64,000 bases of DNA, from NCBI GenBank assembly GCA_016700095.1, contig CP065002.1:496463-560462 (forward strand), written 5' to 3'. This document shows, one piece after another, positions 38,009-56,097 of this stretch. Source of the stretch: Candidatus Woesebacteria bacterium (GTDB lineage Bacteria; Patescibacteriota; Microgenomatia; UBA8517). The notes under the pieces were generated by a model. That model was given only the letters and a program-made list of their open reading frames with translations, had not been told where the DNA came from and did no database searches. Position numbers and translations under genes: made by a program. Position 1 is the stretch's first letter, and each line of letters begins with the position of its first letter.

Positions 38009-38560
38009 TTATATCGACAAGACAGGGAGTGCGGTTACAACCAAGCGTTTGGAATCCAGAAAACCACTACAGGTATAAAGTGTAATACGCTCATCATTTG
38101 TCGGATCCAGAATTCCCATTTGATCAGGGCTGACAATTTGTACATATTCTATTTTGTAGCTTCTGGTTGTACCGTCCGATAGTACAATCTTAATTAAGTC
38201 ACCTGGTTGTGCCTTTGCCAAATTACCCAGAATATTCTTGTAATTATGTCCATAAAAAACACTATTCCCGTTTTGACCTGGTGTTGCAGATGATACAAGA
38301 AATGACACACCTTCGGTTGTGGTTTCCCATCTACCTTCATTAACTCTGGCGGGAAAAACTGAAAGATTAATGTCCAAAGTGCTAAGAGAAAGTGATACCG
38401 GTTGTAAATCTAATTTATCTTCTTTATTGCTATATGTGTTTATGGCAACGTTACTGAAGGCTAGTCGGTTTGGGTTATATCTTTGCCATAAGTAAAATGC
38501 TGAAACAATCATCATACATATTCCGGTGACGATAAATACGTTGGCAAGCAGATTTTTCAT
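38009..38560 (-). CDS. sortase-family transpeptidase (membrane anchored)
   Basis: N-terminal TM anchor; catalytic triad context His (SVFYGHNYKN), Cys in DERITLYTCSGF (TLxTC), Arg (KRLVV). Confidence 0.8.
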   Translation of the reverse strand: MKNLLANVFIVTGICMMIVSAFYLWQRYNPNRLAFSNVAINTYSNKEDKLDLQPVSLSLSTLDINLSVFPARVNEGRWETTTEGVSFLVSSATPGQNGNSVFYGHNYKNILGNLAKAQPGDLIKIVLSDGTTRSYKIEYVQIVSPDQMGILDPTNDERITLYTCSGFLDSKRLVVTALPVLSI

Positions 38561-38572
38561 ATGTAGAACACT

Positions 38573-54300: not shown

Positions 54301-56097
54301 CCAGCCTTTTACTTTGCTGTTTGCTTCTTCAAGTGTTGTTGAGTCGATAATGGCGGTTTTGTAACCATGTTTGAACAGCCTGGTTCCCAGATCACAATCT
54401 TCGGTTACATTAAATGCGTCCCAACCATGTAGTTTTTTCAGGACCTCTGTTCTGAAATGATTACTTGTTCCACCAAGTGGTATTGTTGAATCAATGCTTT
54501 GAAGTCCGGGTAAAATCAGATCAAACCATAAAGAATATTCTGCCGTAAAAAGTCTTGTCAAGATATTTTGATGCGGATTAAAGTAATTTAGTTTTGATTG
54601 TAAACACGCTACTTTTTCTCCTGAGTGTTGGAAAGCCAAATAGGATTTTTTCAGTTGATCGGTGTCGGGTTTATCTTCTGCATCGTAAACGACAACATAT
54701 TTACCTTTCGCATGTGCTAACCCCCAGTTGCAGGCTTTTGGTTTAGTTTTCGGTTGGGAATGCGGAACGACCAATACTCTGAAAAAATGAGGTAAGTTCA
54801 AAGCCTGTGCAGCAGCTTGGGTTTCAGTGTCATCCTCTTCGAGTAACAAAAGTACATCAAGTTTGTTTTTCGGCCAATCCAAATCATTTATTGCTTTGAC
54901 AAACCAGGGGAGTACACGAGCTTCTTTGTAAAGCGGACAAAGCACAGAATAGACGGGTAGATCGTCGTCTCTAAGTGAGTCTAATTCCTCTTTGTTAAAA
55001 TTTAATTCGGGTGGAAAATGTAGACTTTTTAAAAGCACATATAAGTTAAACAGTAGATCCAAAAAGTAAATAAAAGTTAGAAATCCCGTTAGTACTATCG
55101 CTGTCGTTAGGGCATTAAAATATAATCCAATTCCGACAACAATTAATCCCGTAAAAAAGACTATTTTCTGCCAAGGGTAGAATGTACGAAAAGCAGATTT
55201 GTCGTGCGGAAGATGAGTATGGGTTATAAAGCGTTTTCCGCGATAAGCTACACCTGATCCCAGCGGTAACTTTTCATCTTCACCTTTAATTTCGTAGATT
55301 TTGCGTTTCTTAATTTTTAGACCCAATGCATGACGTGCAATTTCAAAAGAAGCATGTATAAATTTTATATTCGATTGGCCGTTAATTCTTTCGGAAAAAT
55401 CGATATTGATACTTCCTATTGAGTAGCCCAGTTCACGTCCTGCGTGAAGGAGCGGCATATCAATCGACCATTGACCCACCTCTTCAGCTTTTAAATGTAA
55501 AATTATTTCCTTTTTGAAGATCTTCAAACCTGACTGTGTGTCGACTTTGAATCCATGCAAAATTCTTTCAAAAATTAGAATATTTGCTTTAGAACCGAAT
55601 TTTCGAAGAAACGAAGTTTTGTGATTTTTTCTATTGGCAACAGCAATTCCATGTTTACGTGCGACCTCAAAAAGTTCGGGAAGTGCCTCCGGTGGGTATT
55701 GCAGATCACCATCGATCATTGCCACATATTCGGTTATGGCGATTTGAGCTCCTTCGAGGATACTAATAGCTTTGCCTTTTTTACCCTTTTTGTTGTGCAG
55801 GATAACGGGAAATGAATTTGTAAGTTTATTAATTTCCCTAACCGTATGATCGGTTGAGTGGTCGTCGACAAAAATAATTCTATAGTCAATTTGGGCATTA
55901 ACCATAGCAAGATGAATCCGTTGGGTTAAAGGTGCGATATTATCACCCTCGTTAATAACGGGAACGATAATATCCAGTTTGTGTATTGGTTGTTTATTCA
56001 TTGCAGGCTTTGTGTATACGAAATAATTTATAAACGTTTCAAAATCGCAATCTTTTTCCAATAACGATTTTTGTAAACGAGTGTGCATTATAACCAA
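51304..56097 (-). CDS. 1597-aa four-module fusion: DPM1-like GT2, processive BcsA/PgaC-like GT2 synthase, Wzx/MOP-like 12-TM transporter module, GT4 (group 1) glycosyltransferase
   Basis: Module 1 (aa about 40-265, nt about 55303-55980): DIIVPVINEGDNI...IIFVDDHSTDHT...DGDLQ. Module 2 (aa about 375-612, nt about 54262-54975): flanking TM helices, YDAEDKPD, VTEDCDLGTRL and QRSRWIKG (D,D,D,QxxRW). Module 3 (aa about 775-1195): about 12 TM helices. Module 4 (aa about 1210-1597): NILIYNWRDSKHVWGGGAEVYVHEMAKRW...EGWGITIIEANQAGTPVIAS (GT4). Single uninterrupted ORF. Confidence 0.85.
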   Translation of the reverse strand: MVIMHTRLQKSLLEKDCDFETFINYFVYTKPAMNKQPIHKLDIIVPVINEGDNIAPLTQRIHLAMVNAQIDYRIIFVDDHSTDHTVREINKLTNSFPVILHNKKGKKGKAISILEGAQIAITEYVAMIDGDLQYPPEALPELFEVARKHGIAVANRKNHKTSFLRKFGSKANILIFERILHGFKVDTQSGLKIFKKEIILHLKAEEVGQWSIDMPLLHAGRELGYSIGSINIDFSERINGQSNIKFIHASFEIARHALGLKIKKRKIYEIKGEDEKLPLGSGVAYRGKRFITHTHLPHDKSAFRTFYPWQKIVFFTGLIVVGIGLYFNALTTAIVLTGFLTFIYFLDLLFNLYVLLKSLHFPPELNFNKEELDSLRDDDLPVYSVLCPLYKEARVLPWFVKAINDLDWPKNKLDVLLLLEEDDTETQAAAQALNLPHFFRVLVVPHSQPKTKPKACNWGLAHAKGKYVVVYDAEDKPDTDQLKKSYLAFQHSGEKVACLQSKLNYFNPHQNILTRLFTAEYSLWFDLILPGLQSIDSTIPLGGTSNHFRTEVLKKLHGWDAFNVTEDCDLGTRLFKHGYKTAIIDSTTLEEANSKVKGWIKQRSRWIKGYLQTYLVHTRDPIGFIKTNGIHALVFHLIIGMRMVFILINPLLWLLTISYFALYPYVGVTIEALYPPVVFYPAVTLLVFGNFVYFYNYMIGLAKRGNWSVIKYVFLVPVYWLMTSAAAAVAFKQLFTKPHYWEKTQHGHHLSKPVVATHLADVTMEMAATPNLISEKKPRVLLHPALFGGGILIASSVVANFSNFIYNAFLGREVSLEEFGTVSLMSSIFSLVTVISAAVGRTVNHKSAFLLGKLKSPVKEFVRVVIGKSFIASLAVTVIWVATIPFLARYFQIDSSLPFILFTPIWLVFLPGSVAGGFLMGNFKFIQIALAVVLEASSKLFITYLFVSLNRPELIYTAIPISLILAFIATSLFVYLTKGIDKDKLQKTDLTFPTGFFATSLLTGFASVSFMTLDIILAKHFLTPLEAGRYALLSLSGKMIYFLTGLVSQFLIPVISKNEGESKDSGKAFGLLFLLIASISTVGYVIFGVGAPITIPYLFGDKALSIIDLLPLYGFAMVAFVLSATITTYHQIKNHYLFPVITFSFAIAQVIGITLRHDSITHIVSVITGLSVIQLSAIILVHYFYSKLVSLIYNFVDFGRLFQKLPKTSAPKEKLNILIYNWRDSKHVWGGGAEVYVHEMAKRWVKDGHSVTIFCGNDRKNKGFEKVDGVSVIRRGGFYTVYFWAAVYYIFRFRKTYDCIVDCENGIPFFTPLYSRIPKILLIHHVHQDVFRKHLPFPLSRIAMLIESRLMPLVYRDSKIITVSQSSRDAIAEMNWAEKSDVNIVNPGINKHHKNGYKKTAYPSFLYLGRLQPYKNVDTVIHAFAKILERNRNAKLTIAGFGESIESLKNLSHKYGLHGAVTFTGYVSEEEKHKLLAESWVSLQPSSFEGWGITIIEANQAGTPVIASKISGLIDSVQDNETGILVPVGDIEMWAKTMESLINLDDVRKTLSKNAIVWSKNFSWDKSAKQFLDNIFTIIDPKKAVALSRKFNLLNTK

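What the first reader, a model, noticed from the sequence alone, without database searches (positions are those of the whole stretch)
38009..56097. Candidate complete surface-glycan / protein O-glycosylation and anchoring system on one strand
All genes from 56.1 kb down to 38.0 kb are co-oriented with minimal spacing. The order is: the mega glycosyltransferase, rfbF-rfbG-RmlC-like-reductase (CDP-6-deoxyhexose supply), four DPM1/GtrB-like GT2 paralogs, two PMT/ArnT-like GT-C enzymes, a membrane-anchored glycoside hydrolase, an LAxTG-anchored Ser/Thr-rich surface protein and a sortase. DPM1-like GT2s make polyprenyl-P-sugars, and GT-C enzymes transfer those sugars to Ser/Thr of proteins (as in actinobacterial Ppm1/Pmt) or to wall polymers. 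A Ser/Thr-rich sortase substrate encoded next to them is a natural acceptor. A coherent hypothesis is therefore a deoxyhexose-containing O-glycan built on lipid carriers and attached to a wall-anchored protein. That substrate specificity is inferred, not seen.
Basis: inference. Interest (0 to 1): 0.8.

Follow-up and report, generated by a model that had tools for sequence, protein, structure and literature searches.

The report
Conserved CPR surface-glycan and sortase cassette
An 18-kb operon of an ultrasmall bacterium (Candidatus Woesebacteria) encodes a kit for building sugars on lipid carriers and transferring them outside the cell, next to a small wall-anchored protein and its own sortase; the same kit recurs in dozens of related species, but whether the sugars end up on that protein is unproven.

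Summary
Family and fold tests confirm RfbF, RfbG, an RmlC-like epimerase, four paralogous membrane-tethered GT2s, a GT-C fold enzyme (AF2 pLDDT 90; ALG12 and ArnT nearest), a second, distantly related GT-C-like protein, a membrane-anchored clan GH-A TIM-barrel enzyme, an LATTG protein and a sortase.

Corrections:
- The "reductase" is a DXR-II-like (DRL) oxidoreductase, not an SDR.
- The clearest DPM1/ArnC/GtrB-like module is the N-terminus of the 1597-aa enzyme, which also carries a processive-synthase-like GT2 (TED, QRSRW), a possibly Wzx-like membrane domain and a GT4.

The core order (giant GT, GT2s, gtcA-gtcB, GH, LAxTG protein, sortase) recurs across Microgenomates: gtcB 56/57 loci, GH 51/57, substrate plus sortase 36/57. 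The CDP-sugar module is variable, about 10 of 57.

Protein O-glycosylation remains unproven. The Ser/Thr-rich spacer is not conserved (17/92 have five or fewer Ser/Thr; some have FN3 or DGRS repeats). The nearest GT-C structures act on lipid-linked glycans.

Best reading: a strain-variable surface-glycan assembly cassette with three-component logic, coupled to a dedicated wall-anchored protein. It is a new variant of a known kind.

The parts
51304..56097 (-). 1597-aa multidomain glycosyltransferase ('mega'). Domains: aa 36-260 DPMS/ArnC/GtrB-like GT2 (nt 55318-55992) followed by a TM hairpin at aa 309-350; aa 375-740 processive-synthase-like GT2 with DAED, TED and QRSRW motifs (nt 53878-54975); aa ~780-1200 multi-TM domain, possibly Wzx-like (nt 52498-53760); aa 1231-1575 GT4 (nt 51373-52407).
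   Evidence: Pfam and NCBIfam. PDB phmmer of the N-terminus: DPMS 5mlz 7.8e-19, ArnC, GtrB. Motifs read from the sequence. TM segments. A stand-alone homologue of the TM domain weakly matches PF01943 at E=6e-4. A mega-type GT is present in 55/57 related loci.
50452..51231 (-). Glucose-1-phosphate cytidylyltransferase (RfbF).
   Evidence: TIGR02623, 399.6 bits against a cutoff of 300.25.
49400..50464 (-). CDP-glucose 4,6-dehydratase (RfbG).
   Evidence: TIGR02622, 510.4 bits against a cutoff of 278.45.
48868..49449 (-). RmlC-like 3,5-epimerase. The probable true start is Met18, near nt 49398.
   Evidence: PF00908 2e-63. TIGR01221, 175.6 bits against 155.75.
47570..48865 (-). DRL/DXR-II-like NAD(P) oxidoreductase with a SAF domain. 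Inferred to be the C4-ketoreductase of the CDP-sugar branch.
   Evidence: PF21135 1.6e-57. Brucella DRL 3upl 9e-73. It sits next to rmlC in 8/9 related loci that have rmlC and in L088. An RmlD-type SDR occupies the same slot in L074. The function is inferred.
46681..47577 (-). GT2 paralog a, membrane-tethered.
   Evidence: Weak GT2 Pfam hits. Paralogy. C-terminal helix.
45746..46714 (-). GT2 paralog b.
   Evidence: PF00535 1.5e-22..
44814..45761 (-). GT2 paralog c.
   Evidence: PF00535 1.4e-26. PDB DPMS 6.8e-5. The family profile is nearer the DPMS-like than the synthase-like domain.
43903..44817 (-). GT2 paralog d.
   Evidence: PF00535 2.5e-17..
42367..43896 (-). gtcA: 509-aa GT-C fold glycosyltransferase of an uncharacterised family. 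E52, R59 and D85 are invariant in the first external loop.
40748..42370 (-). gtcB: 540-aa multi-TM protein with a ~140-aa C-terminal extracytoplasmic domain. Probable second GT-C. Overlaps gtcA by 4 nt.
   Evidence: NCBIfam LA_3751/LA_3752 weak hit. 7/68 homologues match PMT_2 and 3/68 match PMT. hhalign to gtcA E=7e-4. Adjacent to gtcA in 56/57 loci. The fold was not modelled.
39460..40740 (-). gh: N-terminally membrane-anchored clan GH-A (beta/alpha)8 enzyme with a C-terminal CarboxypepD_reg-like beta-sandwich. Invariant E167/E169 lie after beta4 and E266 (GEFGAP) at the end of beta7.
   Evidence: AF2 pLDDT 90.3. Foldseek gives 235 hits at E<=1e-3; the listed top hits are almost all clan GH-A enzymes, with GH157 best at 1.8e-11. 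Invariant residues. TM segment. Present in 51/57 loci.
38573..39253 (-). surf: small sortase substrate. It has a signal peptide (likely start Met24, nt 39184), a conserved ~110-aa domain with four Cys, a Ser/Thr/Asn-rich spacer, LATTG (nt 38660-38674), a TM helix and a basic tail.
   Evidence: Sequence. Family alignment. Sorting motif LA[x]TG in 41/45 homologues. No Pfam or PDB match. 377 representatives in 1.84e9 proteins.
38009..38560 (-). Membrane-anchored sortase dedicated to the adjacent substrate. The His (FYGHN), Cys (TLYTC) and Arg motifs are present.
   Evidence: PF04203 1.9e-21. No sortase class model reaches its cutoff. It lies directly downstream of surf homologues in 6/6 reverse look-ups.
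56098..56431 (.). Intergenic region between the operon and the divergent ychF gene. Presumed promoter region; not demonstrated.
   Evidence: ORF map. Consensus promoter matches are no more frequent than in shuffles.

Best explanation
This is a conserved cell-surface glycan assembly cassette of Microgenomates (CPR). It follows the three-component logic used by known systems: a GT2 loads sugar onto polyprenyl phosphate, a flippase moves it across the membrane, and a GT-C enzyme transfers it outside the cell.

Proposed steps:
1. Strain-specific nucleotide-sugar genes supply donors. Here RfbF, RfbG, an RmlC-like epimerase and a DRL-type reductase would make a CDP-6-deoxyhexose. (Family identities shown; product inferred.)
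2. At the inner face of the membrane, the DPMS/GtrB-like domain of the giant enzyme and the four membrane-tethered GT2 paralogs load sugars onto polyprenyl phosphate and/or extend a lipid-linked oligosaccharide. The synthase-like GT2 and the GT4 domains of the same enzyme build the backbone. (Inferred.)
3. The multi-TM domain of the giant enzyme, possibly Wzx-like, moves the lipid-linked sugars outward. (Weak hint only.)
4. The adjacent, probably co-translated GT-C pair gtcA/gtcB transfers them to an extracytoplasmic acceptor. (Fold shown for gtcA; acceptor unknown.)
5. The membrane-anchored GH-A enzyme trims or remodels the glycan. (Fold shown; activity inferred.)
6. The dedicated sortase fixes the small four-Cys protein to the wall. 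(Motifs shown.) That protein is the glycan's wall-anchored partner.

I favour a polymeric or lipid-linked glycan as the direct GT-C acceptor, later attached to or held by this protein (about 0.45). Direct O-glycosylation of its spacer is less likely (about 0.3).
For: - Family and fold assignments.
- The gene order MEGA, GT2/GT4 set, gtcA, gtcB, gh, surf, srt recurs in species-level genomes of many Microgenomates lineages. Counts in 57 loci: gtcB 56, gh 51, mega-type GT 55, GT2 paralogs 50; surf 39, sortase 39, both 36.
- The surf-sortase pair stays with the locus after rearrangement (L071, L072 and L048). Starting from surf homologues, the GT-C/gh genes lie upstream in 4 of 5 informative contigs, and a sortase lies next door in 6/6.
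- The GT and sugar-gene content between the conserved ends varies from species to species, as in O-antigen or capsule loci.
- The mega enzyme's second GT2 carries TED and QRSRW motifs. GH-A geometry, with Glu after beta4 and at beta7, fits a polymer that needs processing.
Against: - No biochemical data exist for any component.
- gtcB's fold was not modelled and its profile evidence is weak.
- The flippase assignment rests on one sub-threshold hit. No GtrA-family protein is in the locus.
- It is unresolved whether the GT2 paralogs make polyprenyl-P-sugars or extend lipid-linked glycans. They carry an RQSxRF motif resembling QxxRW, yet their profile is nearer the DPMS-like domain.
- 15 of 57 loci have neither surf nor a sortase within 10 kb. 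One surf-sortase pair lies away from any GT-C gene (L085). The coupling is therefore frequent, not obligatory.
- The DRL enzyme could be a true DXR-II of isoprenoid synthesis rather than a sugar reductase. The diagnostic residues were not checked.
Confidence: 0.6

Rival explanations
1. The GT-C pair directly O-glycosylates Ser/Thr of the sortase substrate from polyprenyl-P-sugars, including a 6-deoxyhexose. This would work like S. mutans Pgf or actinobacterial Ppm1/Pmt, and the glycoprotein is then anchored by the sortase.
For: - There is tight, conserved linkage between the GT-C pair and the LAxTG protein plus sortase.
- The spacer is Ser/Thr-rich in most family members: median 11 Ser/Thr, 32% of the spacer.
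- Precedents exist. The Pgf genes lie next to the LPxTG adhesins they glycosylate, with a GT-A enzyme plus two GT-C enzymes (PMC12041528). GspA is a small glycosylated sortase substrate (PMC6381275).
- PMT-type profiles give weak hits in some homologues.
Against: - 17/92 family members have five or fewer Ser/Thr in the spacer. Some have almost no spacer, an FN3 domain or DGRS repeats. The conserved part is the folded four-Cys domain.
- Low-complexity wall-spanning spacers are common in sortase substrates whether or not they are glycosylated (general knowledge).
- PMTs rank below ALG12 and ArnT structurally.
- This model does not explain the GH-A enzyme or the processive-synthase-like domain.
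- The CDP-deoxyhexose genes are present in only a minority of loci.
Confidence: 0.3
2. A synthase-dependent secreted exopolysaccharide system, for example a beta-glucan-type matrix polymer. The mega enzyme polymerises and exports the polymer, gh is its processing hydrolase, and the GT-C enzymes add side branches. The sortase pair is merely a neighbour with no biochemical link to the glycan.
For: - The synthase-like GT2 has DAED, TED and QRSRW motifs and TM helices.
- The best structural match of gh is an endo-beta-1,3-glucanase of family GH157.
- 15/57 loci lack surf and sortase nearby.
- L085 shows surf-sortase on its own.
Against: - The surf-sortase pair follows gh in most loci and moves together with the locus, or with gh, when the order is rearranged (L048, L071, L072).
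- No equivalog-level match to any known synthase was found; PgaC scores 116 bits against a cutoff of 422.
- No c-di-GMP or outer export components were seen.
Confidence: 0.15
3. Modification of an existing envelope molecule rather than synthesis of a new glycan. The target would be lipid II or peptidoglycan, a teichoic-acid-like polymer, or a membrane lipid, in the manner of ArnT with lipid A or YfhO/CsbB with teichoic acids.
For: - ArnT is among the top structural neighbours of gtcA.
- There is an ArnC-like GT2 domain.
- GT21-type (lipid glycosyltransferase) weak hits appear for two GT2 paralogs.
Against: - The number and diversity of GTs (two GT2 domains, a GT4 and four GT2 paralogs here; up to five GT2s and three GT4s elsewhere) exceeds what single-sugar decoration needs.
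- No other arn, tag/tar or dlt-type partners are in the locus.
- No YfhO match was found.
Confidence: 0.1

Closest known systems
Streptococcus mutans Pgf protein-glycosylation system (PgfS, PgfM1, PgfE, PgfM2, encoded next to the LPxTG adhesins Cnm, CnaB and CbpA)
   Same: It combines a GT-A/GT2 enzyme, a sugar-modifying enzyme and two GT-C membrane enzymes, and it is encoded beside the sortase-anchored proteins with Ser/Thr-rich regions that it modifies outside the membrane (PMC12041528; PMC5856776).
   Different: - PgfM1 and PgfM2 are YfhO-type GT-Cs, whereas gtcA and gtcB give no YfhO match.
- The PgfS model scores 51 bits against a cutoff of 500.
- Pgf has no giant multidomain GT, no GH and no dedicated sortase.
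- Its substrates are large adhesins, not a ~150-aa four-Cys domain.
Three-component Gtr-type glycosylation (GtrA flippase, GtrB polyprenyl-P-sugar synthase, GT-C transferase), including streptococcal GtrB/PgtC2 and Bacillus/Listeria CsbB-GtcA-YfhO
   Same: A GtrB/DPMS/ArnC-like GT2 with a following TM hairpin is combined with extracytoplasmic GT-C enzymes.
   Different: - No GtrA-family protein is in the locus; a possibly Wzx-like domain is fused into the giant enzyme instead.
- There are two GT-Cs and many further GTs.
- There is also a GH and a sortase module.
Actinobacterial Ppm1/Pmt (GT39) protein O-mannosylation and the GT-C mannosyl- and arabinosyltransferases of LM/LAM and arabinogalactan (PimE, AftA/B/D, Emb)
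   Different: There is no profile-level membership of PMT, and the organism, carrier and acceptor are different. Which of the two actinobacterial modes applies (protein or glycolipid acceptor) is exactly what remains open.
Actinomyces oris GspA-LcpA-SrtA pathway
   Same: A small sortase substrate carries a glycopolymer and is then anchored to peptidoglycan, and the glycosylating enzyme gene is adjacent to the substrate gene (PMC6381275).
   Different: There the transferase is an LCP phosphotransferase and the sortase is the housekeeping enzyme. Here no LCP protein is in the locus, GT-C enzymes are present instead, and the sortase is dedicated.
Campylobacter jejuni HS:41 CDP-D-fucose / CDP-6-deoxy-L-altrose pathway (HS41.21 to HS41.18)
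   Same: The first three steps use the same enzymes in the same order: cytidylyltransferase, CDP-glucose 4,6-dehydratase and 3,5-epimerase. They are followed by a C4 reduction (PMC12369002).
   Different: The C. jejuni reductase is annotated as a nucleotide-sugar dehydratase-type (SDR) enzyme, whereas here the gene in that position is a DRL/DXR-II-like oxidoreductase. No pyranose/furanose mutase is present. The product stereochemistry is unknown.
Synthase-dependent polysaccharide systems with a dedicated hydrolase (for example Bcs with BcsZ, Pga with PgaB)
   Same: A GT2 with D, DxD, TED and QxxRW motifs and TM helices is combined with an extracytoplasmic glycoside-hydrolase-fold enzyme. The comparison with Bcs and Pga is from general knowledge.
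   Different: All scores are far below the equivalog cutoffs. The synthase-like domain is fused to three other modules, and GT-C enzymes and a sortase module have no counterpart in those systems.

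Membership tests
PMT / GT39 protein O-mannosyltransferases | Match to the PF02366 (PMT) profile at or above its threshold | tested here: not met
   Neither window protein gives a Pfam hit at E<=0.01 or at E<=0.1. Only 3/68 gtcB homologues give weak PMT hits, best 9.6e-5.
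PMT / GT39 protein O-mannosyltransferases | Transfer from polyprenyl-P-mannose to protein Ser/Thr | not testable with these tools
GT-C fold superfamily | Multi-TM GT-C architecture with conserved acidic residues in the first extracytoplasmic loop | tested here: met
ArnT-like / PMT_2 (PF13231, GT83-type) | Profile match to PF13231 | tested here: inconclusive
   The window proteins give none. 20/48 gtcA homologues (best 2.5e-8) and 7/68 gtcB homologues match weakly. ArnT is the best Foldseek hit, at TM 0.49 only.
Gtr-type three-component glycosylation | GtrB/DPM1/ArnC-like polyprenyl-phosphate glycosyltransferase | tested here: met
   The mega N-terminus matches DPMS 5mlz at 7.8e-19, ArnC at 4.6e-13 and GtrB (sll0501) at 2.3e-11, and is followed by a TM hairpin. 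This is domain-level similarity only; the activity was not tested.
Gtr-type three-component glycosylation | GtrA-family (PF04138) flippase encoded with the system | tested here: not met
   No PF04138 hit in any of the 14 proteins. GtrA-fused GT2s occur elsewhere in related contigs. The only hint of a flippase is a sub-threshold Wzx-like match.
S. mutans Pgf system | YfhO-type GT-C enzymes and a PgfS equivalog | tested here: not met
   No YfhO hits. NF047588 PgfS scores 51.3 bits against a cutoff of 500.
Clan GH-A glycoside hydrolases (4/7 superfamily) | (beta/alpha)8 barrel with catalytic Glu after strand 4 and at the end of strand 7 | tested here: met
   Foldseek gives 235 hits at E<=1e-3, and the listed top hits are almost all GH-A families. 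Invariant E167/E169 follow beta4 and E266 ends beta7 in the model. Catalysis was not tested.
Any defined CAZy/Pfam GH family | Profile match above threshold | tested here: not met
   Only 11/62 homologues give weak PF11790 hits, best 0.0017. There is no PDB sequence match. None of the listed homologues (2303 found) is named as a GH.
Sortases | PF04203 domain with the His, TLxTC Cys and Arg motifs | tested here: met
   76.5 bits against a cutoff of 26.6. FYGHN, TLYTC and KRLVV are read in the sequence.
Class E sortases (the class that canonically recognises LAxTG) | Match to the class E subfamily model | tested here: not met
   NF033747 scores 30.6 bits against a cutoff of 160. No class model reaches its cutoff.
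CDP-6-deoxyhexose pathway | RfbF, RfbG and an RmlC-type epimerase | tested here: met
   All three score above the NCBIfam equivalog cutoffs.
CDP-6-deoxyhexose pathway | SDR-type C4-ketoreductase | tested here: not met
   The gene in that slot is PF21135 DRL_cat plus SAF. Its role as the reductase is inferred from adjacency to rmlC and from RmlD occupying the same slot in L074.
DXR-II (MEP-pathway reductoisomerase) | DXR-II-specific residues (for example Thr229, His250, Arg320 in Brucella numbering; PMC3847144) | not tested
   Overall similarity to Brucella DRL is E=9e-73.
Processive GT2 synthases (BcsA/PgaC/NodC type) | D, DxD, TED and Q(R/Q)xRW motifs with flanking TM helices | tested here: met
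   YDAED, TEDCD and QRSRW are read in aa 470-615 of the mega protein. PF13632 and PF13641 match. TM helices. Equivalog scores are not reached, and processivity was not tested.

The most novel reading that the evidence does not exclude
In Microgenomates the small four-Cys LAxTG protein is a dedicated carrier. The gtcA/gtcB pair, acting as a heteromeric GT-C transferase, attaches a strain-variable lipid-assembled polysaccharide to this protein. Its private sortase then ligates the resulting proteoglycan to peptidoglycan. This would be a sortase-based route for fixing wall glycopolymers covalently, replacing the LCP-ligase route of other monoderm bacteria, with the GH-A enzyme acting as a length-trimming or transglycosylating partner.
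Probability: 0.25. Interest if true: 0.8.

Novelty: new variant of a known kind. Interest (0 to 1): 0.58.

Why it matters
CPR/Patescibacteria make up a large share of bacterial diversity and, where studied, live attached to other cells. Very little is known about how they build their surface.

This cassette is among the most conserved multi-gene arrangements seen here across Microgenomates lineages. It contains four protein families with no functional annotation: two GT-C families, a GH-A family with about 2300 homologues, and a narrow four-Cys wall-protein family. Its middle section varies from species to species, as in O-antigen loci, which suggests a diversifying surface glycan relevant to host or phage recognition.

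It gives concrete targets for metaproteomics and glycomics of groundwater enrichments, for heterologous biochemistry of a DRL-type enzyme in a nucleotide-sugar context, and for testing whether sortases can couple glycans to the wall.

Tried and rejected
- Sequence searches of gtcA, gtcB, gh and surf against PDB chains, with single sequences and with family profiles, gave nothing meaningful.
- Pfam and NCBIfam gave no family for surf, gtcA or gtcB themselves, nor for the mega TM domain. Only one stand-alone homologue of that domain gave a sub-threshold Polysacc_synt hit.
- hhalign of the mega TM domain against gtcA and gtcB profiles showed no relation, so it is not a third GT-C.
- The exact-sequence look-up of the window gtcA found no contig on record, although the 100%-identical NCBI protein exists.
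- Promoter and terminator scans were no better than shuffles. No tRNA or Rfam elements are in the window.
- Literature searches for this locus in Microgenomates, Patescibacteria or CPR found no description.
- I considered classing the four GT2s as PgaC-like synthases because of their best NCBIfam hit and their RQSxRF motif. Profile-profile comparison places them nearer the DPMS-like domain (E=5e-20 against 4e-9), so this is left unresolved.
- I considered pilin or S-layer glycosylation. No pilin or S-layer gene is in or beside the locus.
- I considered a mobile or horizontally acquired island. Composition is unremarkable apart from strand-dependent skew, and the cassette is lineage-wide.

Full report
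**Source and layout.** The window comes from a Candidatus Woesebacteria genome (CPR/Patescibacteria, Microgenomates). The 509-aa product of 42367-43896 is 100% identical to NCBI protein IPM62_02660 on a 1.27-Mb contig. Eleven of the 13 junctions are between -50 and +12 nt. The two exceptions are 72 nt (rfbF/mega) and 206 nt (surf/gh). The flanking genes are unrelated, so the unit is bounded as described: YchF, SSB and proteases on one side; ArsR, a permease, an MFS transporter and a VIT-domain protein on the other. Promoter and terminator consensus scans add nothing beyond chance.

**Nucleotide-sugar genes.** RfbF, RfbG and the RmlC-like epimerase all exceed NCBIfam equivalog cutoffs: 399.6 against 300, 510.4 against 278, and 175.6 against 156 bits. 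The fourth gene is not an SDR reductase. It is a PF21135 DRL/DXR-II-like oxidoreductase with a SAF domain, matching Brucella DRL at E=9e-73.
- The sequence cytidylyltransferase, 4,6-dehydratase, 3,5-epimerase, C4-reductase is biochemically established in C. jejuni HS:41. [quoted passage not shown]
- In related loci the DRL gene sits directly after rmlC in 8 of 9 loci that have rmlC and in L088. L080 has two tandem rmlC-DRL pairs.
- In L074 an RmlD-type SDR occupies the same slot.
- I therefore read the DRL homologue as a non-orthologous C4-ketoreductase. This is an inference. A true DXR-II role was not excluded, because uncharacterised DLO relatives of DXR-II exist (PMC3847144).

**Glycosyltransferases.** The 1597-aa protein has four modules:
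- An N-terminal GT2 that matches P. furiosus DPMS (7.8e-19), ArnC and GtrB, followed by a TM hairpin.
- A second GT2 with PgaC/CelA-type similarity and the YDAED, TED and QRSRW motifs.
- A membrane domain of about 10 TM helices with no family match. One stand-alone homologue weakly matches Wzx-type PF01943 at E=6e-4. It is unrelated to the GT-C proteins.
- A C-terminal GT4.

The four ~300-aa GT2s are paralogs, 24-35% identical, three with a clear C-terminal hydrophobic helix. Their direct similarity to DPMS is weak (6.8e-5) and their best NCBIfam hit is PgaC-like, below cutoff. However, their family profile is closer to the DPMS-like domain than to the synthase-like domain (E=5e-20 against 4e-9). 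'DPM1/GtrB-like' is therefore only partly supported for them.

**GT-C pair.** Neither membrane protein hits Pfam. Both weakly hit the NCBIfam LA_3751/LA_3752 putative-GT family.
- An AF2 model of gtcA built from 48 homologues is confident: pLDDT 90.4, pTM 0.92.
- Foldseek returns only GT-C enzymes at the top: ArnT 1.2e-6, AglB, STT3, ALG9/3, Pmt4, Emb, Aft.
- The fold is therefore established. The strongest neighbours mostly use polyprenyl-monophosphate sugar donors, and the two best act on lipid-linked glycan or lipid acceptors rather than on proteins. The margins are too small to fix the acceptor.
- At family level, 20/48 gtcA homologues and 7/68 gtcB homologues give weak PMT_2 hits, and 3/68 gtcB homologues give weak PMT hits.
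- gtcA and gtcB are only distantly related (hhalign E=7e-4, probability 27%).
- gtcB has a conserved ~140-aa C-terminal soluble domain. Its fold was not modelled.

**Hydrolase.** The 426-aa protein has an N-terminal TM anchor and a C-terminal CarboxypepD_reg-like domain. No family matches its core, and only 11/62 homologues give weak PF11790 hits. The AF2 model (pLDDT 90.3) matches clan GH-A TIM barrels: 235 hits at E<=1e-3, with GH157 endo-beta-1,3-glucanase best at 1.8e-11, then GH10, GH26, GH30, GH5 and GH164. Invariant E167/E169 follow strand 4, and E266 (GEFGAP) ends strand 7. This is the geometry of retaining GH-A enzymes. It is a family of about 2300 homologues, and none of those listed is named as a hydrolase.

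**Sortase module.** The sortase has PF04203 and the His, Cys and Arg motifs but reaches no class-model cutoff. The substrate is the only sorting-signal protein in the window. Its family is small: 377 representatives among 1.84 billion, all unannotated. The architecture is a signal peptide, a conserved ~110-aa domain with four invariant Cys, a variable spacer, LA[x]TG, a TM helix and a basic tail.
- The spacer has a median length of 32 aa with 32% Ser+Thr.
- 17 of 92 members have five or fewer Ser/Thr in it, 8 have DGRS-type repeats and 7 have an FN3-sized insert.
- The conserved element is therefore the folded domain, not a Ser/Thr tract. That domain has no Pfam or PDB relative.

**Synteny.** A scan of one genome per species returned 80 loci from Gottesman-, Levy-, Woese-, Ames-, Davies-, Chisholm-, Roizman- and Curtissbacteria, WWE3 and others. 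ORF calling plus BLAST and HMM labelling gave the following.

| Gene or gene set | Loci with it |
|---|---|
| gtcB (57 loci with at least 6.5 kb downstream of gtcA) | 56 |
| gh | 51 |
| surf | 39 |
| sortase | 39 |
| surf and sortase | 36 |
| neither surf nor sortase | 15 |
| mega-type GT (57 loci with at least 8 kb upstream) | 55 |
| GT2 paralogs | 50 |
| DRL | 18 |
| rfbF-like | 11 |
| rfbG-like | 9 |
| rmlC | 7 |

The number and type of GT2, GT4, acetyltransferase, kinase and sugar genes between the conserved ends differ from species to species. Where the order is rearranged, surf-sortase still stays with the locus: L071 and L072 have it upstream of mega, and in L048 gh and surf are inverted together. 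Starting instead from surf homologues, a sortase is next door in 6/6 cases. The gtcA-gtcB-gh genes are upstream in 4 of 5 informative contigs, L085 being the exception.

**Interpretation.** The data support a conserved, strain-variable surface-glycan assembly cassette built on three-component logic (polyprenyl-P-sugar synthase, flippase, GT-C), with a polymer-type synthase domain and a GH-A processing enzyme. It is functionally coupled to a dedicated sortase and its single small substrate.
- Shown: the family or fold identities and the synteny.
- Inferred: the direction of sugar flow, the flippase role, the DRL reductase role, and above all the acceptor.
- I give the general mechanism 0.6.
- My reasons are that the spacer is not conserved, that the GH and synthase-like modules imply a polymer, and that gtcA's closest structures are glycolipid-acting.
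Its best precedents are the S. mutans Pgf system, which lies next to the LPxTG adhesins it glycosylates (PMC12041528), and A. oris GspA, a small glycosylated sortase substrate (PMC6381275).

**Novelty and limits.** Every module belongs to a known superfamily, so this is not a new kind of system. However, the combination (a giant four-module GT, a GT-C pair, a GH-A enzyme and a private sortase with substrate) and its lineage-wide conservation in CPR bacteria were not found in the searchable literature. Four of the families are unannotated. Limits of this work:
- ORFs in related loci were called mechanically.
- Record titles of many MAGs are unreliable.
- AF2 models are predictions.
- gtcB and surf were not modelled.
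- Nothing here measures a glycan.

Noticed in passing
L011:14531-15922, L013:14453-15763, L037:10183-11577, L040:14410-16020, L048:14428-15792, L051:14370-15500, L060:12761-14107: In related loci that lack rmlC, the DRL/DXR-II-like oxidoreductase gene is followed directly by a PF13204 'Apiosidase-like' (GH140-type) gene, with E from 1e-45 to 1e-63. This is a second conserved gene pair for an enzyme family whose non-DXR members are uncharacterised. It may hint at a branched-chain or unusual sugar.
   Followed up: partly
L080:2-3677: Two tandem rmlC-DRL gene pairs lie upstream of the GT2 paralogs. This is hard to reconcile with a housekeeping MEP-pathway role for DRL.
   Followed up: no
L002:13130-13880 and L001:14416-14932: Toxin-antitoxin pairs (PhdYeFM+PIN; ParE+Phd) are inserted inside or at the edge of the otherwise conserved gtcB-gh-surf stretch.
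   Followed up: no
L087:11780-16609 and L088:9238-15447: Immediately downstream of the sortase lies a second conserved cluster: a ~665-aa unknown protein, a cellulose-synthase-like GT2 (~495 aa), a membrane-fusion-like protein and a GH81 (beta-1,3-glucanase family) protein. It may be a separate beta-glucan system. It is not present in the window.
   Followed up: no
window 38573-39253 (-): The mechanical ORF starts at TTG 39253. An ATG at about 39184 (Met24) gives a typical signal peptide ending in VSA/QS and is the more likely start. The NCBI model (223 aa) also differs from the mechanical ORF.
   Followed up: partly
P0355 (370 aa), P0356 (640 aa); ~280-aa forms such as P0246, P0297 and P0303: A few members of the surf family carry two or three copies of the four-Cys domain. 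Others have an FN3 domain in place of the low-complexity spacer.
   Followed up: partly
L007, L010, L013 and many other loci; L008; L078: Many public MAG records carrying this Microgenomates cassette are titled 'uncultured Gammaproteobacteria' or 'Pseudomonadales'. One is titled 'Bathyarchaeia' and one 'Verrucomicrobiia'. These titles probably reflect mislabelling or mis-binning.
   Followed up: no
window 30358-33420 (-): A 1020-aa protein with a VIT (vault inter-alpha-trypsin) domain and no sorting signal lies about 5 kb beyond the sortase end of the locus. It is possibly another surface protein.
   Followed up: no
L029:13409-14875; L001:2832-4457; L030:14515-16047: Some related loci carry a third GT-C-like gene. 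One reaches the PMT_2 threshold (27.1 bits). Others are extra gtcA-like copies.
   Followed up: no
L084:19335-20474 and L089:8035-9026: GT2 proteins fused to a GtrA_DPMS_TM (PF04138) domain occur about 8-9 kb from the surf-sortase pair in two relatives. No such gene was seen in the window's locus.
   Followed up: no
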